A DNA stretch of 27,486 nt. It comes from a virus. Lineage: Duplodnaviria; Heunggongvirae; Uroviricota; Caudoviricetes. This document shows positions 3,019-22,731 of this stretch, piece by piece. The translations under genes and the position numbers were made by a program. Position 1 is the stretch's first letter. The number at the start of each line of letters is the position of its first letter. Location of the stretch: the IMG/VR virus record IMGVR_UViG_2909282993_000005, one strand, 5' to 3'. The notes beneath the pieces were generated by a model. That model did no database searches. It was not told the DNA's origin and saw only the letters and a program-made list of their open reading frames with translations.

Positions 3019-3600
3019 TTACCCTATAGGTGCTACTGGCCATTCAATATCCGGTGCAGTTGTTGTATTAACACGGTTCAGCAACACCCGATACTTCTTC
3101 CAGGCTTCCAGCAACGAGATTTCTTCCTCCGTTGCAATTTCCAGATCTGCAGCATCCTGAAGCGGCGCAATATGCTCACTGGCTACCTGCATCAGGTTGT
3201 TTTTTGTTTCTTCCGCCTCCCGGATCCGGAACAGTTTTTCTGCTTCCGTATCCTTCACCCAGGCTGTGCCGTTCCACTTCTGATATTCCCCTTCCGGCGA
3301 TAACCAGGTGACATTTTCCGGTAACGAGCCAAGTTCAGAAATAAATAACGCGTCGCCGGAAGCCACGTCATAGACGGTTTTTCCCCGATGATCTTCAACG
3401 AGATGCCACGATGCCTCATCACTGTTGAAAACAGCCACAAAGCCAGCCGGAATATCTGGCGGTGCAATATCGGTACTGTTTGCTGGCAGACCTGTATGAG
3501 GCGGAATATATGCGTCACCTTCACCAATAAATTCATTAGTTCCGGCCAGCAGATTATAAATTTTTATGGTCCGTGGTTGTTCACTCATTCTGAATGCCAT
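3019..3600 (-). CDS. Tail fiber assembly protein (Tfa family)
   Basis: 193-aa ORF starting [54 protein letters not shown] and ending [13 protein letters not shown]...IEWP, characteristic of lambdoid TfaQ/TfaR/TfaE proteins. Its start overlaps the stf stop. Confidence 0.85.
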
Positions 3601-7189: not shown

Positions 7190-7306
7190 TTTTCCTCACA
7201 TATGTCATATAGTAAAGGATTATATATACCGTTGTTTTGGACGCTCAAACAGCGAATCAGATCAAATAAAACGCACATTTGTTAACATTTACACAAAGTC
7301 TGCGTG

Positions 7307-7327
7307 GGATATTCTGAAAGAATATCC
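7307..7327. promoter_or_regulatory. 21-bp perfect palindrome ggatattc-tgaaa-gaatatcc (candidate dimeric regulator binding site)
   Basis: Read directly: 8-bp inverted arms around a 5-nt spacer, about 120 bp upstream of the lipoprotein gene start at 7189. No T-run, so not a terminator. Confidence 0.3.
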
Positions 7328-7722
7328 ATAATGTGGAGAGAATCTATTGAAGTGCATGGTGCCGGGTGCCTCCCGGTGAATTCAGTACCAGCACCTGAAT
7401 CCGCGATTATCCCATATACCTACTCGCTGATTGCCCCTCCGCACAGGGGGATTCACCATGCCAGTTTCTTTTAACAAACTCCCCGCAAACCAGAGAACAG
7501 TCAACCGCCTGAATTGTGAAGTATTTAAAAATTTCTCCCGCTAACTGATACCCGGCTAACAGTCTGGCGTTTTCTTTTTCAGCAACGGGAAAGCAACAAC
7601 CACCACACCCGCCACCAGCACACCGTCAGCCAGCACTGACATTATCCGGCTGCTGCAATGCCATTCACAAAAACAGTAAGCAATCACTTTTTACCGTAAC
7701 AGGTGATAATCCAGATATGTAT

Positions 7723-8186: not shown

Positions 8187-8263
8187 TGGCGCGCTGTACT
8201 GGATTCGAACCAGTAACCGATTGCTTAGAAGGCAATTGCTCTGTCCGGCTGAGCTAACAACGC
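8187..8263 (-). tRNA. tRNA-Arg (anticodon UCU)
   Basis: 77-nt cloverleaf GCGTTGTTAGCTCAGCCGGACAGAGCAATTGCCTTCTAAGCAATCGGTTACTGGTTCGAATCCAGTACAGCGCGCCA. 7-bp acceptor stem, T-loop GGTTCGAATCC, anticodon loop CTTCTAA (U33, anticodon TCT, A37), encoded CCA. Confidence 0.85.
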
Positions 8264-8367
8264 TGAATACCGATAATGGACCGCTATCGGGGACCCGCCC
8301 CCCCCCGCACCAACAACCCTGTTATCGTGTCGTCTGCTCTTCCTGATAAGCTCATGGCGGTTTGTGA

Positions 8368-8443
8368 TGGTGGCCCTTGCTGGATTTGAACCAGCGACCT
8401 GGCGATTATGAGTCGCTCGCTCTCACCACTGAGCTAAAGGGCC
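8368..8443 (-). tRNA. tRNA with CAU anticodon, most similar to tRNA-Ile2 (lysidine type, ileX/ileZ-like); elongator Met not fully excluded
   Basis: 76-nt cloverleaf GGCCCTTTAGCTCAGTGGTGAGAGCGAGCGACTCATAATCGCCAGGTCGCTGGTTCAAATCCAGCAAGGGCCACCA. Anticodon loop CTCATAA; strong resemblance to E. coli ileX from recall. Confidence 0.8.
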
Positions 8444-11288: not shown

Positions 11289-11444
11289 TTACTCCTCAGG
11301 TTCGTAAACTGTGAAGACAGCGACCTCCGTCTGGCCGGTTCGGATTCGTAACTCGCAGAGGTCTTTCCTCGTTACCAGTGCCGTCACTATGACGGTTAAA
11401 CAGATGACGATCAGGGCGATTAACATCGCCTTTTGCTGCTTCAT
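11289..11444 (-). CDS. hokD: Hok/Gef-family type I toxin (HokD/RelF-like, 51 aa); in-frame upstream extension to 11501 corresponds to a Mok-like reading frame
   Basis: MKQQKAMLIALIVICLTVIVTALVTRKDLCELRIRTGQTEVAVFTVYEPEE, near-identical to HokD/RelF from recall: single TM helix plus conserved C-terminal periplasmic tail. Confidence 0.9.
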   Translation of the reverse strand: MKQQKAMLIALIVICLTVIVTALVTRKDLCELRIRTGQTEVAVFTVYEPEE

Positions 11445-12164
11445 AGCCTGCTTCTCCTTGCCTTTCGGCACGTAAGAGGCTAACCTAGATTTGCCGTTCA
11501 TAGATTGAGCCTCAGATTAATGTTAAGCGTCTTGCAGGACGCGTAATGTTAACTGGGGCTTTTCTCTATCTGCCTTTGGTGTTCATGCCTGAGGCAGATA
11601 GCCTCAAGCACCCGCAGCAATTCTACTTAACTCCCGTCACCTCGCCAATATAAAATCAATCAGAAAGGCGATCCATAAGAACAACAGCAAGACAATAAAT
11701 TGCCATTACAGCCGCAATAGCTAGCGCACATTTGAGAACCAGCACGACAACCTCCTGTATTGGACGTACACCAGTTCTGATAAATATGAGGCTGTCTCAT
11801 CATTGATTCAATATAACTATTGGGTATAGTTTCTGTGATTTTGTTCTGTAGAAATGGAACACAACAACCAGTCACCACCAGCACTTCTTTAAATACGCCA
11901 AGTCCGACGCAAGCTAACCTTCTAGTCCGCTTTGAGCGAGGAGCGGACCAAACCCGGCCAACTGACTCTTAAAGGGGCCGCAGGAATTTTTCGTCTGAAC
12001 TTTCGAAGCTCCTCTCCCTGAAGACAGAAAACTTCTGTGTGCTGTGGGAATATTGAATCTTTGCATTAGATATAAATAATTTTATCCCGCCTGAAGTTTA
12101 CATTATTTTATTTATCTGTTTTTCTAAATCAGACTGCACTCCTTACTTAAATCAGGAGCCAGTC

Positions 12165-13364
12165 ATGCCATTTGTTATTTATGTGTTTACTATCAGTGCC
12201 TTTGCGCTCGGACTCGCGGAATTTGTCCCCATTGGGCTGACAGACGTTATGGCTCAGGGGTTGTGTGTGGGTGTGGAGCAGACCGGGGCAGCGGTTACAA
12301 CCTATGCACTGGGGGCAACGTTCGCGGCACCCGTACTGTCTGCGCTGACAGCAAGCTGGAGCCGGAAAAATGTAATGCTTACAACTGCCGTTGTGTTTAC
12401 TGCCGGTAGTCTGGCGGCCGCGTTTGCAGCCACATTACCTCAGCTCCTGTTAGCGCGGTTCATTGCTGGTCTGGGACACGGCCTGTTTCTGGCTGCGGCA
12501 TCCAGTACCGCAGCTCGTCTTGCTGGACCGGGTAAAGCAGGCAGAGCGGTGGCTGTGGTATTTGGTGGCTTTACTCTGGCGATGGCAATCGGCGTACCGC
12601 TGAGTACATGGTTGGGGGGGGTGGTCTCATGGCGTCCAGTTCTCGGCGCTATTGCCGCTTTTGGCGCGTTCGGATTCCTTGGACTGTTGTTCGGTATGAA
12701 AGATCCCGTACGCAGCGTGCCCGGTGAACATAGTGACTCAGCAATGCAGAATATCGGCATGCTGTTTAACCGTAAGTTGCTGGCCGGCGCGCTGGTTACG
12801 GTGCTGGCGTATGCAGGCTCGTTTACGGCTTACACCTTTATCGCACCTATTCTGACGCAGGTGACAGGGGTTACCGGAGCAAAGGTGAGTCTGTTTATGC
12901 TGGTTTACGGTATTACAGCTGCGGTAGGTAATATTCTTGGTGGGAAACTTACCGACAGCATGGGGGTTAATCGTGCCAATATACTCATCATTAGCGGCAT
13001 TGTTGTTGTCGTGCTTGGTATGTGGCTGCTGTCATCCTCACCGGTGAGCATGGGCATTCTGGTTGCGCTGCTGGGTATGGTGACATTTGCCGCAGTGCCG
13101 GCACTGCAGGCCCGTCTGATTGGTGTCGCTGAGCAACATGCTCCTCATGCGCATGGTGTTGCTGCCGGCCTGAATATTGCGGGCTTCAACTCAGGTATAG
13201 CGCTGGGATCAGTACTGGGCAGCATTACTATAAGCCACGCCGGTATCGTGTATACCGGTATCAGCGGTGCGATTGTTTCTCTGCTCGGCCTGCTGTTGCT
13301 GCTTGCACAAATCCGTCGCAGCCACAGTCGTAAATTTCAACAGGTTAAAATCGTAGGCCAGTAA
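12165..13364 (+). CDS. MFS transporter (12-TM, DHA1-like efflux/sugar-type family); GC-rich gene
   Basis: 399-aa highly hydrophobic ORF with MFS loop motifs; AGGAG RBS. Nucleotide composition is visibly more GC-rich than the flanking phage DNA. Confidence 0.8.
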   Translation: MPFVIYVFTISAFALGLAEFVPIGLTDVMAQGLCVGVEQTGAAVTTYALGATFAAPVLSALTASWSRKNVMLTTAVVFTAGSLAAAFAATLPQLLLARFIAGLGHGLFLAAASSTAARLAGPGKAGRAVAVVFGGFTLAMAIGVPLSTWLGGVVSWRPVLGAIAAFGAFGFLGLLFGMKDPVRSVPGEHSDSAMQNIGMLFNRKLLAGALVTVLAYAGSFTAYTFIAPILTQVTGVTGAKVSLFMLVYGITAAVGNILGGKLTDSMGVNRANILIISGIVVVVLGMWLLSSSPVSMGILVALLGMVTFAAVPALQARLIGVAEQHAPHAHGVAAGLNIAGFNSGIALGSVLGSITISHAGIVYTGISGAIVSLLGLLLLLAQIRRSHSRKFQQVKIVGQ

Positions 13365-13375
13365 AGGGAGGTTAT

Positions 13376-14068
13376 ATGCTTACCCGTGAAAATATGCTTA
13401 ATGGCACATTTGTCAGGGTGCATGAAGCGCTGCTCCCGGCGAATATGCTCTGGGACGCTGAAAAAATACGCGCATCAATGAACTCTACTCTGGAGGAGCG
13501 CCCGACGGGTGCTCCTTTCTGGATATTTGCCTACGGGTCATTGATGTGGAATCCCGTGCTGGCAATTGAAGAAATGCAACGGGCCCGTCTGAAAGGATGG
13601 CAGCGCAGTTTCTGCATTCGTTTGATATCCGGACGAGCGACTCCTGATGTCCCCGGCAGGATGTTATCGCTCGACGAAGGTGGAATTACCGAAGGTATTG
13701 CGTTCAGACTGCCGGAATCGACTCTTATTAATGAGCTGGAAATTGTCTGGACGCGCGAGATGATAACCGGTCTTTACCGTCCGGTCTGGGCAGACGTTTC
13801 GCTAGGAAACGGTGAGGAAATTCAGGCGCTGGCTTTCGTATCAGACAGACTGCATCCGCATTATGAACAGGACAATCTTACAGCGACCGTAGCGTTGAGC
13901 ATCGCATCTGCCCGTGGAGACATTGGCACGAATGCAGATTATGTATGGAAACTGCAGGCCACTCTGGGTGCGTTGGGAATACGGGATGATTACGTGAGTG
14001 AACTGGCCCTTGCTCTGCATGAGGCTCCCTGTAACGATAAACTTCATCAGCGAGGCGCTTCACTATGA
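13376..14068 (+). CDS. ChaC-family gamma-glutamylcyclotransferase-like protein
   Basis: 230-aa product with FAYGSLMWNP and GRMLSLDEGG...WTREMITG motifs matching the ChaC/GGCT fold signature (YGSL catalytic region). Confidence 0.8.
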   Translation: MLTRENMLNGTFVRVHEALLPANMLWDAEKIRASMNSTLEERPTGAPFWIFAYGSLMWNPVLAIEEMQRARLKGWQRSFCIRLISGRATPDVPGRMLSLDEGGITEGIAFRLPESTLINELEIVWTREMITGLYRPVWADVSLGNGEEIQALAFVSDRLHPHYEQDNLTATVALSIASARGDIGTNADYVWKLQATLGALGIRDDYVSELALALHEAPCNDKLHQRGASL

Positions 14069-14946
14069 GCCATCTGAGCCATCTGCGAACGTTTCTTGAG
14101 GCCTATCGCTCTGGCTCCTTTTCAAAGGCGGCAGAACTACTGGGCATCACTCAGCCCGCGGCGTCACAGCATATCCAGTCTCTTGAGACTCTGGTTGGTA
14201 AGCGTCTGTTTATCAGGCAGGCCAGAGGCGTGACGGCAACCGAAGCTGCGGATGAGCTTGCCCGCTCAGTTTCACCCTTCATTGATGGTCTGGAAGAAAA
14301 GCTGTCCTCTTTCCGGTCAGGCTCTGTACACGGGGGAACAATTAATCTGGCAGGACCGCCAGATTTTATTCATTCCCGGCTTGGGACAGTAATGGCTCCA
14401 CTAATGAAGGAGGGGTATCGCCTACGCTTTCATACCGGCAATAAGCAACGTATTTATTCCCTTTTGCATGACGGGAGCGCCGATCTCGCTGTTACCGCAT
14501 CTATGCCTGATGACCGTCTGTACGGCTATGCACATCTACTGACTGAACGCATGCTCCTTGTTCATGCTCCCGCCATGTCAGAGATCATCGGATCAGAACC
14601 TGGTGCTGAAACGCTTGCCTCATTACCGCTGATTGCTTATGACGAAGAGTTGCCACTGATTAGAGCGCTCTGGGCCTCCATGTTTCAGAGAGCCCCTGAG
14701 ATGCAGGCTACATTCACCATTCCGGATTTACGTATTATCCGCGACTTGGTCTGTGACGGCCACGGGTGGACAGTGCTGCCGGATTATCACTGTGACAATG
14801 ACCTGAAAAGTGGTCGCCTGATTTCAGTGACACCTGCAGACCTCGCTCCGACTAATCATCTTTATCTGGTCTGGAACAAAAGGACGGCTAATAACAGCCG
14901 AACCGCCTATGTTCGGGATTACATTCTTAAAACGTTTCCGCGTTGA
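14065..14946 (+). CDS. LysR-family transcriptional regulator
   Basis: 293-aa product with an N-terminal wHTH typical of LysR (LRTFLEAYRSGSFSKAAELLGITQPAASQHIQSLE) and a C-terminal substrate-binding domain. 4-bp overlap with the ChaC-like gene. Confidence 0.85.
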   Translation: MSHLSHLRTFLEAYRSGSFSKAAELLGITQPAASQHIQSLETLVGKRLFIRQARGVTATEAADELARSVSPFIDGLEEKLSSFRSGSVHGGTINLAGPPDFIHSRLGTVMAPLMKEGYRLRFHTGNKQRIYSLLHDGSADLAVTASMPDDRLYGYAHLLTERMLLVHAPAMSEIIGSEPGAETLASLPLIAYDEELPLIRALWASMFQRAPEMQATFTIPDLRIIRDLVCDGHGWTVLPDYHCDNDLKSGRLISVTPADLAPTNHLYLVWNKRTANNSRTAYVRDYILKTFPR

Positions 14947-14990
14947 TGTTTGAAACGGATGATTGGCGATGTGTATCATAAGTTACGTAT

Positions 14991-15020
14991 GTCCGCTTCT
15001 GGCACAAAGCAGACGCCCAC
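14991..15020. repeat. 30-bp imperfect direct repeat, copy A (gtccgcttctggcacaaagcagacgcccac)
   Basis: Matches copy B at 18664..18693 in 24/30 positions, with a 14-bp core GGCACAAAGCrGAC. Lies between the LysR stop and the convergent membrane-protein gene. Confidence 0.5.
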
Positions 15021-15076
15021 TCTCACGCGAATGCTTTGCCCTTGACTTGCCAACAACCGTATCGCTTGCTCCGCAA

Positions 15077-16369
15077 CTATGGTTTTTTATTAGAACCTTC
15101 GCCACTAAATAAATTATAATAAATTGATTTTATTAGATATCTGTCAGAATCTATATGGTCAGCACGAGTAGCATGCTCTAATGTTTCAAATGCTAGGGTT
15201 TGTGCGGCTTCAGCAAAAATTCCAGGCCAACCCTTACTCAGCATCGACAGTCCTTTAAGTACCCTTATCTGAATTTCCCTCATACTGGCACCATCGCGCG
15301 CAACAGGTGAGAAAAAGTCTTCAAGTAGATCGTTATTCTGAAGTGGTGCAACATGTACAGAAGGATATTTCACTTCTATTTCATCAGATTTATTCTGCGC
15401 GTAAGCGGAAAGTATACGTACACCTCTGCCAATGACATCAATGGCGGTTCCAGGATCGTTCACTGCGGGGGAAAGGGCTCGGCAGGCTATTTCGGCCATG
15501 ACGCTAAGACAAAATCGGGGGTCCTGAGCAAATGAACGTACATCCGAGACAATAATCGTCTCAAGTAAATCGGTGCTGATTGATGACTCCTGGCCCTGAC
15601 TCAGGTACAAAACTGGCGTGGACGGATGTATGAAACTGCCCGGCTGCGCCACGAGGTATACATGACGGGGATCATTGGTCAGCAGCTTGCTGAGTTTCAC
15701 CATATCAACATATTCAACATAGCCAATCTTTTTCGGATAAACTGCAACCGTTCCTTTCGGCTGTTCATTGTTCTCAAGCCATGGATATCCGCCGAGACAG
15801 GGATTTCTTGCTCTCGCAATAAATGTTTCGATGGCCGCCTGTTCTACTTTTGCCGTTGTCTCACCAACCCTCCCCAGAGAGGTCAAATGCTGTATCCAGC
15901 GAAGCAATGTGATGAGGATTAAGGCAATGACAACCAGTGTTACAATGAATAAAATGACTCTCCCCCTTTCTCCATAAGCTCCCATATTGAGGGCAATAAT
16001 CCCTACCAGACTGAAGAGAAAAGAACCGATGAAGGTGGCCAGTACATTTTGTGTGGTGACGTCTTCAACAACTAAACGAGTAGCTCTGGGAGTCACATTA
16101 GTAGTGGCTGAACCGTAGGCTGTGACCATGATGCTCAGCGAAAATGTGGTCACTGCCAGCATACTCGATGCCAGTATGTTCAGAATGTTATCGACTGCTT
16201 CCGCACCAACCTTCACGGAAACCGACTCAGGTATCATTGATTTAAAAAGAATTGATAAAAGGGCCGTTATTATTGCGACAATTGCGAATAACGTTGCCCT
16301 GAACCATAGTTTTTTAAATGTCTGCTTCAGCATCCATTTCCAGCGTGAAATCATTCTGCATTCCCTCAT
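15077..16369 (-). CDS. Membrane protein with N-terminal multi-TM region and C-terminal soluble domain (tentatively DUF2254-like); exact start uncertain (alternative Met codons at residues 6 and 13)
   Basis: 430-aa ORF with four predicted hydrophobic helices in the first ~160 residues and a long hydrophilic C-terminus. Family name is tentative recall. Confidence 0.55.
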   Translation of the reverse strand: MRECRMISRWKWMLKQTFKKLWFRATLFAIVAIITALLSILFKSMIPESVSVKVGAEAVDNILNILASSMLAVTTFSLSIMVTAYGSATTNVTPRATRLVVEDVTTQNVLATFIGSFLFSLVGIIALNMGAYGERGRVILFIVTLVVIALILITLLRWIQHLTSLGRVGETTAKVEQAAIETFIARARNPCLGGYPWLENNEQPKGTVAVYPKKIGYVEYVDMVKLSKLLTNDPRHVYLVAQPGSFIHPSTPVLYLSQGQESSISTDLLETIIVSDVRSFAQDPRFCLSVMAEIACRALSPAVNDPGTAIDVIGRGVRILSAYAQNKSDEIEVKYPSVHVAPLQNNDLLEDFFSPVARDGASMREIQIRVLKGLSMLSKGWPGIFAEAAQTLAFETLEHATRADHIDSDRYLIKSIYYNLFSGEGSNKKP

Positions 16370-16417
16370 ATTGCAGCCGGGATAAATAAATGCCGCCTCT
16401 GTGGCGGCATGTTGCTG

Positions 16418-18421
16418 TTAACGAACCAGATGCAGGAAGTGCAGGTGTTTTTCGTACTGGTCCAGTATGTCATTAATCAGCTGTTCCTGATTCCAGCCCA
16501 TTACATCATAATTTTGGCCGCCCTCTTTGAGATAGACTTCAGCGCGATAATATCGATGTTGTTCACTCTGCTGCTCATCATTATCCAGCGCAGCGAGCGC
16601 GAAGGTCGGTGAGTTATACCCGCGAAGCCTCACTTCATATATATAATTCAGCTCGTTGCCCAAATCGACTTCAAGGCGAATACGATCCTCGGCGGCGTCA
16701 CTGATGTGGCTTATCGTTCCCTGCTTGTTAAGTTCCTCCTGAACCAGCGTCATGGCGGGTTGGATAATGTCGTCCATAAAACGTTTCACAAGAGAGCGCT
16801 TCGGCAAATACGCGATATTGCGTAACCTTCTCTGCCAGGGAATTGGGTTACGTGCAGCCGTAGGAGCAATAGTCGCCATGCTAAGGCTTTCACGCTTGGT
16901 CAAATCCCGACGCAGGGCTTTTAACAGTCCGTATATGGATATTAATAAGATAACTGAGAAGGGCAATGCACTCGCTATCGTTACGGTTTGCAACGCACTC
17001 AGCCCCCCTGCGATCAGCAGGGCAATAGCAACAACGCCCATGAGCGATGCCCAGAAAATTCGCTGCCAGACGGGCGTGTTTGCCACCCCACCTGATGCCA
17101 GAGTATCCACAACCATTGCCCCCGAATCAGCAGACGTTACAAAGAAGACGATGACCATCGCCATTGCAATGAATGACAGCACGGAAGAGAACGGGAAATG
17201 CTCCAGGAAATTAAACAGGGCAAGCGCAACATCCTGCTGAACGGTATTGGCGAGGTCAGTGGCGCCCTGGTTCATGATGAGATAGATGGCGCTGTTTCCA
17301 AACACCGTCATCCACATGAGCGTAAAGCCGGCGGGAACAAACAACACGCCAGTCACGAACTCACGAATTGTCCTGCCGCGGGAAACGCGTGCAATGAACA
17401 TACCTACAAACGGCGACCATGAAAGCCACCATCCCCAGTATAATAATGTCCAGCCCCCCAGCCAGTTGCTCGACTTGGGTTCATACGCGTAAAGGTTGAA
17501 CGTTTTACTCACCAGTTCCGACAGATAACCACCCGTATTTTCCACAAATGACTTCAGCAGAAGCACAGTGGGACCCAGGCACAAGACCAGCGCCAGGAGC
17601 AACACCGCCAGGCCCAGATTAAGCTCAGACAGGATGCGTATTCCCTTGTCCAGGCCGGACACCACCGAAATCGTCGCTAACCCCGTGATGACCACGATCA
17701 AAATGACCTGTACCGTTTCATTGATGGGCACGCCGAAAAGATGGTTCAAACCGGCATTCACCTGCAATACACCGTAACCCAGTGATGTTGCAACGCCAAA
17801 GACAGTGCCTATCACGGCGAAGATATCAACCGCGTGGCCTATAGGCCCGTAAATGCGATCGCCGATAATGGGATAGAGCGCAGAACGCAGCGTTAAAGGC
17901 AGACCGTGACGGTAACTGAAAAAGGCCAGAATCAGCGCCACGATGGCATAAATTGCCCATGCGTGCAGACCCCAGTGGAAGAACGTCAGGCGCATGGCTT
18001 CCTTCGCTGCCGCAACGGTCTCTGGAGTGCCGACAGGTGGCGAAAGATAATGCATCACAGGTTCGGCAACGCCAAAGAACATCAGGCCGATCCCCATCCC
18101 TGCCGAAAAAAGCATCGCGAACCAGGAGTGGTAGCTGAAATCAGGCTGCGCATGGTCTGGGCCCAGCTTTATATCACCGTAACGTGAGAGTCCAAGGAAC
18201 GTGACGCTCAGTAAAATCAGGGCCACAGCAAGTATGTAGAACCAGCTGGCATTCGTGAAGATTTGTTGCTGAAGTAGTTTAAAATTTTTGTCGGCGACAT
18301 CCGGGAATACGGCGGCAAAGGCGACAAGAAGGAAAATTAGCAAAGCAGATGTAAAGAATACCGCTTTGTTAATCTGGCTTGTAGACTTCTTTGGGGTTGT
18401 ATCATTTTCACTCATAATCAT
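16418..18421 (-). CDS. BCCT-family transporter (BetT-like choline/betaine/carnitine transporter)
   Basis: 667-aa product with BCCT signature regions (WTLLYWGWWLSWSPFVGMFIARVSRGRTIREF) and the C-terminal DILDQYEKHLHFLHL tail typical of BetT. Confidence 0.85.
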   Translation of the reverse strand: MIMSENDTTPKKSTSQINKAVFFTSALLIFLLVAFAAVFPDVADKNFKLLQQQIFTNASWFYILAVALILLSVTFLGLSRYGDIKLGPDHAQPDFSYHSWFAMLFSAGMGIGLMFFGVAEPVMHYLSPPVGTPETVAAAKEAMRLTFFHWGLHAWAIYAIVALILAFFSYRHGLPLTLRSALYPIIGDRIYGPIGHAVDIFAVIGTVFGVATSLGYGVLQVNAGLNHLFGVPINETVQVILIVVITGLATISVVSGLDKGIRILSELNLGLAVLLLALVLCLGPTVLLLKSFVENTGGYLSELVSKTFNLYAYEPKSSNWLGGWTLLYWGWWLSWSPFVGMFIARVSRGRTIREFVTGVLFVPAGFTLMWMTVFGNSAIYLIMNQGATDLANTVQQDVALALFNFLEHFPFSSVLSFIAMAMVIVFFVTSADSGAMVVDTLASGGVANTPVWQRIFWASLMGVVAIALLIAGGLSALQTVTIASALPFSVILLISIYGLLKALRRDLTKRESLSMATIAPTAARNPIPWQRRLRNIAYLPKRSLVKRFMDDIIQPAMTLVQEELNKQGTISHISDAAEDRIRLEVDLGNELNYIYEVRLRGYNSPTFALAALDNDEQQSEQHRYYRAEVYLKEGGQNYDVMGWNQEQLINDILDQYEKHLHFLHLVR

Positions 18422-19218: not shown

Positions 19219-20289
19219 TTACCCCCTGAAGCCCGGCGGAATTTCGTTATCCGGTTCAGAAATATGATTCACACAACGCTGGTTGTTCGTGCCGCTTACC
19301 GGGAGCAACCAGGGGTTCTCAAAATTCCGGTCCGGTCCAAAAAACGTCGTCGCTCGCTGAACAAATTCCGTTCCCGTTTTCCCGGTAGCCGCCAAGTATC
19401 TTGCGTAACGCCTCACGCCATCCAGCATGGCCTCTGGTGGCACCCCCTCGCGTAATCTGGCCTTCCAGGCACTGAAAGCGGATTTCTTCGGGTTTGCCCC
19501 AGCACGCAACGGGTACTCCCGCCAGACCTGTTCGAACACATCCGGATAATCCACTCGTCCCACAGACTGCCCGGTGTTTTCCGGGACTACCCGATCGGCT
19601 TCCCGCTGAATGGCGGAATCGGCTTCAGGCTGCTGCAGTTGGTGTGATTGCTCCGCCCTTGCGGTCATCACCTGCTGCACAGCGCCCGAATCGGCTTTCA
19701 GCGCATACGCTGAATCGGCTTCCGGTGTCGTGCCTGCTGGCTGACCAAGATTGACGGTCTGAACATCCCCTGCCTGGTTCGTGGCGTTTTTTACGCCATG
19801 GACCATAGTGTTTTGATCTTCTTGATCTGTATCTTTATCTGTATCTTTATCTGTCGTGACTCGTCGTGACATGTGCGTGACATTTCGTGACGCGCCGTGA
19901 CAATCGCCATTTTGTTCCCGCTTTCTTTCCCTCTCTCGCTGCGCCCTCTTGCGCTCTGCAGGAGATTTTGCGGTTTGCGAAATATTGCCGTTGTCCTCTT
20001 TAAGCACCTGGCGTTTTTCCCATCCAGTGATTAAATCACCATCAAGTACCCGCCCCTGCATCGTCTGCAAAATTGAATCAATTACCTCTTCTGTCACGTC
20101 GAGCGCACTTGCCAAATCTTCTGTCGTGACATCAATGTGACCTCGCGTGACATTTCGTGACGCGCTCACCAGGAGGTGGATATACACTGCCATCACTGTT
20201 GCAATTGGCTGCCCTGACACCCTGGCAATTGTTCGCCACTTAGGGTCATTTGGCATGTCATGCCATAATCTGAGCCAGGCGTTAGCCAT
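19219..20289 (-). CDS. Putative replication initiation protein (lambda O-like organisation: iteron arrays inside the coding sequence)
   Basis: 356-aa product from the ATG at 20289 (RBS AGAGGTGA); the ORF track starts two codons earlier at GTG. Sits at the O position after the cro/cII-like genes. Contains two arrays of CGTGAC repeats at 10-11-bp spacing, mirrored in the protein as repeated SRNVT(R/H)..VTT motifs. Confidence 0.55.
   Translation of the reverse strand: MANAWLRLWHDMPNDPKWRTIARVSGQPIATVMAVYIHLLVSASRNVTRGHIDVTTEDLASALDVTEEVIDSILQTMQGRVLDGDLITGWEKRQVLKEDNGNISQTAKSPAERKRAQRERERKREQNGDCHGASRNVTHMSRRVTTDKDTDKDTDQEDQNTMVHGVKNATNQAGDVQTVNLGQPAGTTPEADSAYALKADSGAVQQVMTARAEQSHQLQQPEADSAIQREADRVVPENTGQSVGRVDYPDVFEQVWREYPLRAGANPKKSAFSAWKARLREGVPPEAMLDGVRRYARYLAATGKTGTEFVQRATTFFGPDRNFENPWLLPVSGTNNQRCVNHISEPDNEIPPGFRG
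19855..19901. repeat. Iteron array 1: five CGTGAC motifs spaced 10-11 bp (starts 19855, 19865, 19876, 19886, 19896), preceded by two GATC sites and a tandem 12-bp repeat tatctttatctg
   Basis: Read directly from the sequence. Helical-turn periodicity and location inside the rep ORF resemble lambdoid ori organisation. Confidence 0.6.
20093..20161. repeat. Iteron array 2: CGTGAC/TGTGAC motifs at 20125, 20136, 20146, 20156 plus an inverted copy GTCACG at 20093
   Basis: Read directly; same motif and spacing as array 1, about 225 bp away within the same ORF. Confidence 0.55.
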
Positions 20290-20360
20290 ACTCACCTCTT
20301 TTGATACCGAATCTTTTTACTCACAAATTGCCGGAAGTGATCCGGTATGAATATTGCGAG

Positions 20361-20786
20361 TCAATGCACAGCCACAATATTTCCTGCAGGGCCACCACGA
20401 TTCATCTGGTTGAAACCAGCGATCGCCACTGCGACAAAATCATCAGCGTCTCTCACCAGTCGTTCCCGCGTCTCCACTAGTTCCCGAAAATAGGCTGAGC
20501 TATGGCTGCGCATTCGGGCCACCAGCAGAGGTGGCATTGCTTTTTCGATAGCTGGTAACAACGCCTGAATTTTTTCAACTGCATCAGGGGTGTCTTTCTC
20601 TACCCAGCGGAAAATTTTCTGGGTATTGCGAGCCAGGGCTTCCGGATGGCTGTCGTCATACAGTTCTGGGAACGTCATACCCAGTTCAAAATAAGCCCTG
20701 GTTATTTCAGCTGCCGGAACTTTTTCACCGTCCGGATGCGCCCAGGCATTCATCGCCATGCGGATGTGTTCATGCTTGATTTTCAT
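20361..20786 (-). CDS. YdaT-like protein (cII-position early protein of Rac-type prophages)
   Basis: 141-aa product beginning MKIKHEHI and ending VH with central KIQALLPAI, resembling Rac YdaT from recall; AGGAG RBS. Confidence 0.5.
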   Translation of the reverse strand: MKIKHEHIRMAMNAWAHPDGEKVPAAEITRAYFELGMTFPELYDDSHPEALARNTQKIFRWVEKDTPDAVEKIQALLPAIEKAMPPLLVARMRSHSSAYFRELVETRERLVRDADDFVAVAIAGFNQMNRGGPAGNIVAVH

Positions 20787-21051
20787 GAATCAAGCTCCTA
20801 GAAAGTGGTTGTGTTAACATTTTGGTATCTTCCAGCTCGGGCCAAATATTCATCCAATCAAAAGGCCTTAGTTGCTGACGTGTAACTTCACCATTACTGG
20901 CTCGCTCAATAAGGACACATAACGATGCCCCTAACACTTGACCTTTACTCAATGCCTTTCTTAGATAACCGATGCTGGTACCACACTCGCATGCAAACAT
21001 ACGCTGTTCATCTGACGAAAGAGAATTGAGAAATATTCTTAATTCTTCCAT
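20770..21051 (-). CDS. Cro-like HTH protein of the YdaS family
   Basis: 93-aa product with HTH (QRMFACECGTSIGYLRKALSKGQ) and an ERASNGEVTRQQLRP motif resembling YdaS. Strong AAGGAG RBS; divergent from the repressor gene. Confidence 0.6.
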   Translation of the reverse strand: MEELRIFLNSLSSDEQRMFACECGTSIGYLRKALSKGQVLGASLCVLIERASNGEVTRQQLRPFDWMNIWPELEDTKMLTQPLSRSLIHENQA

Positions 21052-21080
21052 AGCTACTCCTTAGTAAACACAGCAAAGAA

Positions 21081-21116
21081 TACCCACAGGTAAACAAAAG
21101 TCAATACCCACAGGTT
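21081..21116. promoter_or_regulatory. Operator-like sites in the divergent repressor/cro-like intergenic region: TACCCACAGGTA (21081-21092) and TACCCACAGGTT (21105-21116)
   Basis: Two copies of a 12-bp near-palindrome spaced 24 bp apart between divergent genes, related to two more copies downstream of the repressor gene. A further half-match overlaps the repressor start codon. Confidence 0.5.
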
Positions 21117-21151
21117 GTTTACCTTGCAGTAATCGCATCTATTATTTACCT

Positions 21152-21571
21152 ATGGACAAATATGAATTTAGACGACAGCAACTCATCAAAATTCGTGATG
21201 AGAAATGCGATGGTAAAGCGGTTAACGTGGCCAGAAAGATCGGGCGCGAGCCTTCTTATGTATCAAGAATGTTGTACCCAGAGGGGAAAAAGGGAAAAAA
21301 ACGGATCGCTGATGATATGGTGGAGATTATCGAAGAGTCCTTTGGGTTACCCCGGGGATGGATGGATGGTATCGTTTCATCATCAACGAACACAGCCTCC
21401 AGTTATGAAACAAGGGTTCTAACGCCACGACAACGTATTTTTTTAGATCTCTTAGACGAACTGCCAGAAAGTGAAGCGGATAACTTATTAAAAACTCTTG
21501 AAGAGAAAAAACAGTATTACAATATGATCTACGAAGAAATCCGTAAAAAGAAAGCACAAAACGCATCATAG
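21152..21571 (+). CDS. CI/DicA/RacR-position prophage repressor-like protein
   Basis: 139-aa ORF divergent from the cro-like gene with a putative HTH (KAVNVARKIGREPSYVSRMLY). C-terminal FLDLLDELPESEADNLL resembles the DicA C-terminus from recall. No obvious RBS, so possibly a leaderless transcript. Confidence 0.5.
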   Translation: MDKYEFRRQQLIKIRDEKCDGKAVNVARKIGREPSYVSRMLYPEGKKGKKRIADDMVEIIEESFGLPRGWMDGIVSSSTNTASSYETRVLTPRQRIFLDLLDELPESEADNLLKTLEEKKQYYNMIYEEIRKKKAQNAS

Positions 21572-21613
21572 CTCACCAAACAACTAGTCACCAGTTAAGA
21601 CACCGCAAAAAGT

Positions 21614-21650
21614 TACCCATGGGTATTTACTTTTTAAATACCTATGGGTA
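21614..21650. promoter_or_regulatory. Operator-like palindromes downstream of the repressor gene (OL-equivalent): TACCCATGGGTA (21614-21625) and TACCTATGGGTA (21639-21650)
   Basis: Perfect and near-perfect 12-bp palindromes, 13 bp apart, upstream of the rightward ydfA-like operon. Confidence 0.5.
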
Positions 21651-21836
21651 TCCTTCTTTTCATACCAACCCACCCCGCCCCACAGAATGCAGGGCAATAC
21701 TTCGAGTTACCAGGCAGTGGTCAGGGGTTAAGTAGCCAGCCCGAGGCGTAAGAACATGACGGCAGGGTTCAACTTTAATAACTATGCAGCAGGTTTTTGT
21801 TCCGCTACCCCGGCGTTAAGGGGAAATGAGGTCAGC

Positions 21837-22678: not shown

Positions 22679-22731
22679 TTTCTGGTGACGTTTGGCGGTA
22701 TCAGTTTTACTCCGTGACTGCTCTGCCGCCC
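22679..22731 (+). ncRNA. dicF: DicF small RNA (cell-division inhibitor sRNA targeting ftsZ mRNA)
   Basis: 53-nt sequence TTTCTGGTGACGTTTGGCGGTATCAGTTTTACTCCGTGACTGCTCTGCCGCCC matches DicF from recall, followed by a T-run (22732-22736) and preceded by a structured ~300-nt leader. Confidence 0.8.

What the first reader, a model, noticed from the sequence alone, without database searches (positions are those of the whole stretch)
20361..21051. YdaS/YdaT-like pair at the cro/cII position
The cro-like HTH protein and the following 141-aa protein resemble the Rac YdaS-YdaT pair, which has been discussed as a toxin-antitoxin-like or division-inhibiting module. Here they directly precede the replication gene, so they may function as cro and cII analogues.
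Basis: partly seen in the sequence, partly recalled or inferred. Interest (0 to 1): 0.35.

Follow-up and report, generated by a model that had tools for sequence, protein, structure and literature searches.

The report
Prophage Cro and CII-like regulator pair
These two overlapping genes are the Cro-type and CII-type (YdaT family) switch regulators of a common lambda-like E. coli prophage; this is an already published system, not a toxin-antitoxin pair.

Summary
Window 21051..20770 (-) encodes a 93-aa Cro-type HTH protein. Window 20786..20361 (-) encodes a 141-aa YdaT-family protein. The two genes overlap by 17 nt and lie between a divergent repressor gene and an O-like replication gene.

The 141-aa protein matches PDB 3C4R at 140 of 141 residues. 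It is about 85% identical to the characterised CP-933P YdaT (8BT1) and 33% identical to Rac YdaT. The exact YdaT operator, TTGATT-N6-AATCAA, occurs once in the window (20776-20793), spanning the ydaT ATG as in CP-933P and Rac.

The 93-aa protein is only weakly YdaS-like: Pfam gives 25.8 bits against a cut-off of 30. It is 73% identical to the Cro of phage mEp043 and 36% identical to the CP-933P-type YdaS/Cro.

Five phages carry a 96-98% identical YdaT joined to four different cro/repressor cassettes, none close to the window's. The break lies at the YdaT box, which argues against a toxin-antitoxin pair.

The Cro/CII reading is supported, but it was published in 2003-2025. Interest is therefore low.

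One side lead is new. Half of the diverse YdaT homologues end in hydrophobic-His on a disordered tail. This matches the published C-terminal Lon degron and suggests Lon controls this CII analogue.

The parts
20770..21051 (-). cro analogue (93 aa, HTH; 'YdaS-like'). Its last residues, ...LIHENQA*, are read from the YdaT box.
   Evidence: ORF. phrog_35 'transcriptional repressor', E=1e-22. 73% identical to phage mEp043 Cro. 36% identical to the CP-933P-type YdaS/Cro, which matches PDB 8C7K/8CO2. Pfam YdaS_toxin is below the cut-off.
20361..20786 (-). ydaT: the CII analogue (141 aa). It has a POU-like HTH domain, a tetramerisation helix and a disordered tail ending ...IVAVH.
   Evidence: PDB 3C4R 140/141 identical and 8BT1 about 85%. 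Pfam YdaT_toxin above the cut-off. phrog_163 'CII-like transcriptional activator', E=9e-46. The family-invariant residues N54, Q56, R60, L76 and P78, and the near-invariant W61, are all present.
20776..20793 (.). YdaT box / OM operator, TTGATTTTCATGAATCAA. It is a perfect match to TTGATT-N6-AATCAA, and the ydaT ATG lies in its spacer.
   Evidence: It is the only exact match in the window; matches with 2-3 mismatches occur at chance level. The same site was footprinted in CP-933P (PMC9986795) and Rac (PMC11879457). The box sits at -7 from the ATG in 8 of the 10 YdaT loci checked, in E. coli and Klebsiella.
21077..21104 (-). Predicted PR-type promoter for cro-ydaT-O (TTGACT-16-TATTCT).
   Evidence: Consensus scan. 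The position is inferred; the number of promoter-like hits in the region equals the chance expectation.
21080..21117 (.). Right operators: two sites, ATACCCACAGGTAA and ATACCCACAGGTTG, 24 bp apart. They overlap the -10 and -35 of PR and abut the -35 of the repressor promoter.
   Evidence: All four sites with 2 or fewer mismatches to ATACCCAYRGGTAT in the 27 kb window flank the repressor gene.
21118..21145 (+). Predicted PRM-type promoter (TTTACC-16-TATTAT). Its expected start falls on the repressor ATG at 21152, which implies a leaderless mRNA.
   Evidence: There is no Shine-Dalgarno sequence before 21152. Lambda cI and PaaR2 are leaderless in the same way (PMC8630535). This is inferred.
21152..21571 (+). 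Repressor (cI/DicA/PaaR2 analogue, 139 aa).
   Evidence: phrog_5736 'transcriptional regulator', E=4e-70. DicA-like C-terminus. 23% identical to the PaaR2-type repressor of phage Evi, E=1e-8. 39% identical to the Tritos CI. No Pfam or PDB match.
21613..21651 (.). Left operators: palindromes TTACCCATGGGTAT and ATACCTATGGGTAT, 25 bp apart, ahead of the ydfA-dicF-dicB operon.
19219..20295 (-). O-like replication initiator with internal CGTGAC iterons.
   Evidence: phrog_3729, E=2e-257. Iterons.

Best explanation
This is the right half of the immunity switch of a lambda-like E. coli prophage at the Qin site.

Proposed mechanism:
1. From a PR-type promoter in the 100-bp divergent region, one leftward transcript carries cro (93 aa), ydaT (141 aa, overlapping cro by 17 nt) and the O-like replication gene.
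2. The 139-aa repressor binds 14-bp ATACCCAYRGGTAT operators on both sides of its own gene. This shuts off PR and the ydfA-dicF-dicB operon. The Cro protein is expected to bind the same operators to turn the repressor gene down.
3. YdaT is a tetrameric HTH protein. It binds the TTGATT-N6-AATCAA box that spans its own start codon.
4. From that box it activates a reverse (PRE-like) promoter reading back through cro into the repressor gene. This pushes the switch towards lysogeny, as lambda CII does.

What is shown here: gene identities, near-identity to solved and characterised proteins, the box, the operator repeats and the mosaic structure. What is inferred by homology with CP-933P and Rac: binding, activation and the promoter positions.
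For: - Gene order and families.
- YdaT is 140/141 identical to PDB 3C4R and about 85% identical to 8BT1. The 8BT1 protein was shown to be a tetramer binding TTGATT-N6-AATCAA at the ydaS/ydaT junction (PMC9986795).
- That exact box occurs once in the window, on the ydaT ATG.
- YdaT-dependent activation of a reverse promoter was measured in CP-933P (PMC8630535) and Rac (PMC11879457). Rac and CP-933P YdaT cross-bind each other's boxes (PMC11879457).
- The forward primer that defined the active PRE fragment in CP-933P matches the window 18 nt before the box.
- The box is kept at -7 of the ATG in loci whose YdaT is only 33-34% identical, and it lies upstream in a Stenotrophomonas phage.
- Operators cluster only around the repressor gene.
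- Phages Tritos, 689R5, 606R7, 813R8 and Evi annotate the same protein as cII, or place it at the cII position.
Against: - No experiment exists on this allele.
- The promoter calls are consensus matches at the chance rate.
- No convincing -35/-10 pair for a PRE-like promoter was found next to the box. The best candidate scores 8 of 12, and the 3' end of cro is not conserved between immunity types.
- Only one strong YdaT site exists, so the second DNA-binding face of the tetramer has no obvious target.
- The prophage carries a non-phage gene island and may be defective, so the switch may no longer decide anything.
Confidence: 0.88

Rival explanations
1. The two genes form a toxin-antitoxin (or toxin-repressor) module. 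YdaT or YdaS would be a dedicated toxin that arrests growth or division, and its partner or the repressor would neutralise it.
For: Pfam and RefSeq still name the families 'toxin'. Ectopic Rac YdaS/YdaT expression causes filamentation and death (PMC11879457; the Bindal and Krishnamurthi 2017 papers cited in PMC5917428). The genes are small, adjacent and overlapping.
Against: - YdaT is a solved HTH DNA-binding tetramer with a defined operator (PMC9986795).
- CP-933P YdaT, about 85% identical to this one, showed no toxicity (PMC8630535).
- Rac toxicity is attributed to off-target activation of rcsA (PMC11879457).
- A 96-98% identical YdaT is found joined to four different Cro types (3-31% identical to this one), so the two genes are not co-inherited partners.
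- This prophage carries its own division inhibitors, dicF and dicB, in the other operon.
Confidence: 0.04
2. The pair is a decaying remnant with no present function. The prophage is defective, and the genes persist only because they are silenced by the repressor.
For: A 6-kb island of transporter and regulator genes interrupts the early-right region. At the same site in K-12 (Qin), the YdaT gene is truncated to ydfX and its box is degraded.
Against: Both ORFs are intact. All family-invariant YdaT residues and a perfect box are retained. The 861-bp query region (window 20300-21160) is at least 99% identical in 218 complete E. coli genome records. The YdaT-O block is 96% identical at the DNA level and 96-99% at the protein level in sequenced phage genomes.
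Confidence: 0.08

Closest known systems
YdaS-YdaT-PaaR2 immunity region of cryptic prophage CP-933P / Sp12 of E. coli O157:H7 (PDB 8BT1, 8C7K, 8CO2; PMC8630535, PMC9986795)
   Same: YdaT is about 85% identical, with an identical operator box on the ydaT start. The order is the same: divergent repressor, cro-type gene, ydaT, O. The repressor mRNA is probably leaderless in both. The repressor shares a PaaR2-like core.
   Different: Cro is only 36% identical and the repressor 23%. The operators are different (ATACCCAYRGGTAT here, GTTTAGTAA-type repeats there), so the two are heteroimmune. No paaA2-parE2 toxin-antitoxin genes follow the repressor; ydfABC-dicF-dicB follow instead.
racR-ydaS-ydaT of the K-12 Rac prophage (PMC11879457)
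   Same: Same family of CII analogue (33% identity). Nearly the same box, ATGATTCATGAAAATCAA, at -7 of the ATG. Same position before a replication gene. Both YdaT proteins end in a hydrophobic-His tail.
   Different: YdaS matches only over a 28-aa local stretch. RacR is unrelated to this repressor. No extra YdaT sites are seen in the divergent region here. Toxicity through rcsA is shown only for Rac.
Lambda Cro / CII / PRE
   Same: The logic and gene positions are the same. In both, a tetrameric HTH activator encoded after cro acts at a site at the cro/cII junction to drive antisense transcription into the repressor gene.
   Different: There is no sequence relationship. YdaT binds an inverted repeat as a 222-symmetric tetramer, whereas CII binds direct TTGC repeats. 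cro and ydaT overlap, so there is no nutR/tR1 region between them.
dicA-dicC-ydfX of the K-12 Qin prophage (same chromosomal site)
   Same: Same insertion site and the same left operon (ydfABC, dicF, dicB, ydfD). The cro-type gene overlaps the YdaT-type gene by 17 nt. The repressor has a DicA-like C-terminus.
   Different: The K-12 copy is truncated (ydfX, 96 aa) with a degraded box. DicC and DicA belong to a different immunity type.

Membership tests
YdaT family (Pfam PF06254; CII analogues of lambdoid phages) | Sequence match above the curated family threshold | tested here: met
   39.6 bits against a cut-off of 21. phrog_163, E=9e-46.
YdaT family (Pfam PF06254; CII analogues of lambdoid phages) | POU-like HTH domain plus a C-terminal tetramerisation helix, with the conserved recognition-helix Arg-Trp | tested here: met
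   140/141 identical to solved structure 3C4R and about 85% to 8BT1. R60 and W61 are present and invariant or near-invariant in 29 homologues.
YdaT family (Pfam PF06254; CII analogues of lambdoid phages) | Cognate inverted repeat TTGATT-N6-AATCAA at the cro/ydaT junction | tested here: met
   Exact match at 20776-20793, the only one in the window. The position is conserved across loci.
YdaT family (Pfam PF06254; CII analogues of lambdoid phages) | Binds the box and activates a reverse promoter towards the repressor gene | not testable with these tools
   Shown for CP-933P and Rac only (PMC8630535, PMC9986795, PMC11879457).
YdaS family (Pfam PF15943 / COG4197 Cro-type HTH) | Sequence match above the curated family threshold | tested here: not met
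   25.8 bits against a cut-off of 30, covering residues 35-66 only. No NCBIfam hit.
YdaS family (Pfam PF15943 / COG4197 Cro-type HTH) | Homology to an experimentally characterised YdaS/Cro | tested here: met
   36% identity, E=5e-17, to the CP-933P-type YdaS carried by phage Evi. E=1e-10 to PDB 8C7K/8CO2 'Cro'. 73% identity to mEp043 Cro.
YdaS family (Pfam PF15943 / COG4197 Cro-type HTH) | First gene of the rightward operon, divergent from the repressor gene, with shared operators between them | tested here: met
Type II toxin-antitoxin module | One partner has a toxin fold or activity directed at a cellular target | tested here: not met
   Both proteins are HTH DNA-binding regulators.
Type II toxin-antitoxin module | The two genes are inherited and diverge together as a cognate pair | tested here: not met
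   YdaT is 96-98% identical in five phages, while their Cro proteins are 3-31% identical to this one. The mosaic break is at the box.
Type II toxin-antitoxin module | The antitoxin neutralises the toxin by direct binding | not testable with these tools
   No evidence for this in the literature read; it was rejected for CP-933P (PMC8630535).

The most novel reading that the evidence does not exclude
The disordered C-terminal tail of YdaT (here ...GGPAGNIVAVH) may be a Lon 'H-degron'.

- 14 of 27 full-length family representatives, which share less than 50% identity, end in His. 13 of those 14 have a hydrophobic penultimate residue (binomial p about 1e-16 at a 2.3% His background, not corrected for shared ancestry).
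- The rest of the tail does not align between homologues.
- The pattern matches the autonomous C-terminal Lon degron x-[LI]-[LIV]-H, which is shared with SulA (PMC11986505).

If the reading is correct, this CII analogue is kept unstable by Lon, as lambda CII is by FtsH. The lysis-lysogeny choice of these phages would then depend on Lon activity.

Overproduced Rac YdaT might also titrate Lon and stabilise SulA and RcsA. That would add to the filamentation and Rcs activation now ascribed to rcsA transcription alone. No paper in the searched library links YdaT to Lon.
Probability: 0.3. Interest if true: 0.45.

Novelty: already known. Interest (0 to 1): 0.15.

Why it matters
The result matters mainly as a correction of annotation. 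Genes labelled 'toxin YdaT' and 'YdaS toxin' in thousands of E. coli genomes are the CII-type and Cro-type regulators of lambdoid prophages, and this locus is a clean, intact example.

Two small additions come out of the comparison:
- The YdaT box marks the junction at which immunity cassettes (cro, operators, repressor) are swapped between phages that share the ydaT-replication block.
- The family has a conserved C-terminal hydrophobic-His tail. This gives a directly testable idea for how the level of this CII analogue is controlled.

Tried and rejected
- Extra YdaT sites: scans with 2-3 mismatches gave chance-level numbers and none in the divergent region. A 3-mismatch site at the ydaT stop (20347-20364) is not significant.
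- An oop-like antisense RNA against ydaT: the terminator-like hairpin at 20518-20545 is unremarkable. The fold z-score is -0.69 and no promoter was found.
- A conserved PRE core promoter next to the box: no shared -35/-10 geometry was found across the eight loci examined.
- Similarity of the repressor to RacR: none.
- Solved structures for the repressor: only chance-level hits.
- Similarity of the O-like protein to Rac YdaU: limited to the C-terminal PPGFRG motif.
- NCBIfam gave nothing for Cro or YdaT.
- Structure prediction was not run, because a solved structure with a single residue difference exists.

Full report
**What is at the coordinates.** The stated span holds two minus-strand ORFs. 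One is a 93-aa protein (21051..20770) and the other a 141-aa protein (20786..20361). They overlap by 17 nt. The 861-bp stretch (window 20300-21160) that contains them is 100% identical to many complete E. coli chromosomes. 3042 of 5426 genomes match at least part of it, and 812 match at least 80% of it. In strain AR_452 the genes are annotated 'transcriptional regulator' and 'toxin YdaT family protein'. They lie inside a lambdoid prophage at the Qin site, between rspB/integrase and the packaging genes.

**Gene context.**
- Upstream and divergent is a 139-aa ORF (21152-21571, +). It is followed by ydfA, ydfB, ydfC, DicF RNA (22680-22731), dicB and ydfD.
- Downstream of the pair is a 358-aa ORF that PHROGs calls a replication initiation protein (phrog_3729, E=2e-257).
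- Next is a DUF977 / Ren-like gene.
- The order is therefore repressor / cro / cII-position gene / O / ren, as in lambda.

**The 141-aa protein.**
- It passes the Pfam YdaT threshold (39.6 bits against 21) and falls in phrog_163, 'CII-like transcriptional activator' (E=9e-46).
- It differs at one residue from PDB 3C4R and is about 85% identical to 8BT1, the YdaT of prophage CP-933P.
- It aligns over its full length with K-12 Rac YdaT at 33% identity (E=2e-15).
- In an alignment of 29 diverse homologues the invariant positions are M1, N54, Q56, R60, L76 and P78. W61 is nearly invariant. All are present here.
- R60 is the residue that Prolic-Kalinsek et al. single out as essential in the recognition helix (PMC9986795).

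**The 93-aa protein.**
- Its link to Rac YdaS is weak. Pfam gives 25.8 bits, below the cut-off of 30, and BLASTP finds only a 28-residue local match.
- It is nonetheless a Cro-type regulator. It is 73% identical to the Cro of lambdoid phage mEp043, where an ordinary lambda-type cII follows.
- It is 36% identical, over nearly its whole length, to the CP-933P-type YdaS carried by phage Evi (E=5e-17).
- It matches PDB 8C7K/8CO2, deposited as 'Cro', at E=1e-10.

**The operator.** CP-933P YdaT was footprinted on the inverted repeat 5'-TTGATT-N6-AATCAA-3' at the ydaS/ydaT junction (PMC9986795). Rac YdaT was footprinted on ATGATTCATGAAAATCAA, with the ydaT ATG in the spacer (PMC11879457).
- The window contains exactly one perfect match, TTGATTTTCATGAATCAA at 20776-20793. 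On the coding strand this reads TTGATTcATGaaAATCAA, with the ydaT start codon in the spacer.
- Matches with two or three mismatches occur no more often than in shuffled sequence.
- I checked the same position in other loci. The box sits 7 nt before the ATG with 0 mismatches in phages Tritos and Evi, 1 in Rac, 689R5, 606R7 and Klebsiella phage Kp4882-1 (34% identical YdaT), and 2 in 813R8.
- In a Stenotrophomonas phage the N-terminus is unrelated, and a one-mismatch box lies 41 nt upstream. The repeat is therefore not just a by-product of coding for MKIKHEH.

**The pair is not a cognate pair.**
- BLASTN against phage Tritos shows 96% identity from window 20798 leftwards (box, ydaT, O, DUF977) and again from 21668 rightwards (ydfA onwards). 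Between these points there is almost nothing in common.
- Across five phages, YdaT is 96-98% identical and O is 98-99% identical to the window's proteins. Their Cro proteins are 3-31% identical and their repressors 9-35% identical. They represent four immunity types, all different from the window's.
- The break falls at or inside the left half of the box.
- Cro proteins end either ...HENQA* or ...DS*. These are two reading frames of the box itself.
- This is the classical lambdoid immunity-cassette mosaic. It is the opposite of what a toxin and its antitoxin would show.

**The immunity core (not part of the finding, but needed for the mechanism).**
- All four sites in the window with 2 or fewer mismatches to ATACCCAYRGGTAT flank the repressor gene. 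Two lie in the divergent region (21080-21093 and 21104-21117, 24 bp apart). Two are near-perfect palindromes downstream of the gene (21613-21626 and 21638-21651).
- A weaker copy covers the repressor ATG (21146-21159).
- The consensus scan places TTGACT-16-TATTCT on the minus strand (21104..21077) and TTTACC-16-TATTAT on the plus strand (21118..21145). The count of such hits equals the chance expectation, so these promoters are inferred from position only.
- The plus-strand -10 ends 6 nt before the repressor ATG, and no Shine-Dalgarno sequence precedes it. This suggests a leaderless mRNA, as shown for lambda cI and PaaR2 (PMC8630535).
- The repressor has no Pfam or PDB match. It shares a PaaR2-like core with the Evi repressor and a DicA-like C-terminus.

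**Mechanism.** By homology with two experimentally studied systems, the most likely working is as follows.
1. PR drives cro-ydaT-O.
2. The repressor and Cro compete at the shared operators.
3. YdaT, a tetramer, binds its box and activates a reverse promoter that reads through cro into the repressor gene.

YdaT-dependent activation was measured for CP-933P (PMC8630535). It was also measured for Rac, where mutating the box abolished a 29-fold induction (PMC11879457). The forward primer of the active CP-933P PRE fragment matches the window 18 nt before the box, so the promoter must lie at or beyond the box. I could not find a convincing or conserved -35/-10 pair there, so this step stays inferred.

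**Toxin-antitoxin and division-inhibitor readings.** The toxin label comes from a 2007 prediction that later work did not confirm (PMC5917428, PMC9986795). CP-933P YdaT was not toxic (PMC8630535). Rac YdaT toxicity is explained by activation of host rcsA (PMC11879457). This prophage has its own division inhibitors, dicF and dicB, in the leftward operon. I give the toxin-antitoxin reading about 4%.

**A side lead: the C-terminal tail.**
- The YdaT family is small: 74 clusters at 50% identity among 1.84 billion proteins.
- Of 27 full-length representatives, 14 end in His, and 13 of those have a hydrophobic penultimate residue. The proteins of the window (IVAVH), CP-933P (VVMH), Rac (VIVH) and two Klebsiella phages end the same way.
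- The tail is otherwise unalignable, and it is disordered in the crystal structure (residues 125-141, PMC9986795).
- A 2025 study defines a widespread autonomous C-terminal Lon degron, x-[LI]-[LIV]-H, which always ends in His and is shared with SulA (PMC11986505).
- No paper in the searched library links YdaT to Lon.
- This suggests Lon proteolysis as the counterpart of FtsH control of lambda CII. It is a hypothesis only. The enrichment statistic ignores shared ancestry, and nothing here tests degradation.

**Verdict.** Both are already in the literature, and the YdaT protein itself has a solved structure. The locus is an ordinary, well-preserved member of a known system with an undescribed immunity specificity. 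Interest is low.

Noticed in passing
window 19820-19901 and 20125-20161: The O-like replication gene contains CGTGAC iterons. Five lie at 19855-19896 with 10-11 bp spacing and three at 20125-20156. Three tandem 12-bp TCTTKATCTGTA units lie alongside. This is probably the phage origin inside the initiator gene, as in lambda.
   Followed up: partly
window about 12165-18421: A block of non-phage genes sits inside the prophage between hokD/sok and the DUF977/Ren-like gene. It comprises an MFS transporter, a gamma-glutamylcyclotransferase, a LysR regulator, a DUF2254 protein and a 667-aa BCCT transporter. It occupies the place where helicase-loader and nin-region genes would be expected.
   Followed up: no
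window 21152-21571: The 139-aa repressor has no Pfam, NCBIfam (above cut-off) or PDB match in its N-terminal DNA-binding part. Its mRNA is predicted to be leaderless. Together with the ATACCCAYRGGTAT operators, it defines an immunity type for which I saw no description in the papers read.
   Followed up: partly
window 21609-21660: The two left-operator palindromes can also pair with each other as a 16-bp hairpin followed by a T-run. The same DNA may therefore serve as terminator of the repressor transcript and as operator of the dicB operon.
   Followed up: no
window 20361-20420 (YdaT residues 125-141) and homologues P0006-P0074: A conserved hydrophobic-His C-terminus sits on an otherwise variable, disordered tail. 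It is present in 14 of 27 diverse family representatives and matches the published Lon H-degron.
   Followed up: partly
window 20763-20798; L004-L009: The YdaT box coincides with the recombination junction between immunity cassettes. The last residues of otherwise unrelated Cro proteins (...HENQA or ...DS) are read from the box in two frames.
   Followed up: yes
L012 3100-3160 (K-12 Qin dicC/ydfX): At the same chromosomal site, K-12 keeps only a 96-aa YdaT remnant (ydfX). It also overlaps dicC by 17 nt, and its box is degraded to TTGAACAATGAAAATCAC.
   Followed up: yes
window 3059-3257, 7300-7490, 8190-8443, 11439-11613, 22680-22731: Rfam matches above gathering score: IS009 RNA, STnc100, two tRNAs, the sok antitoxin RNA next to hokD, and DicF.
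   Followed up: no
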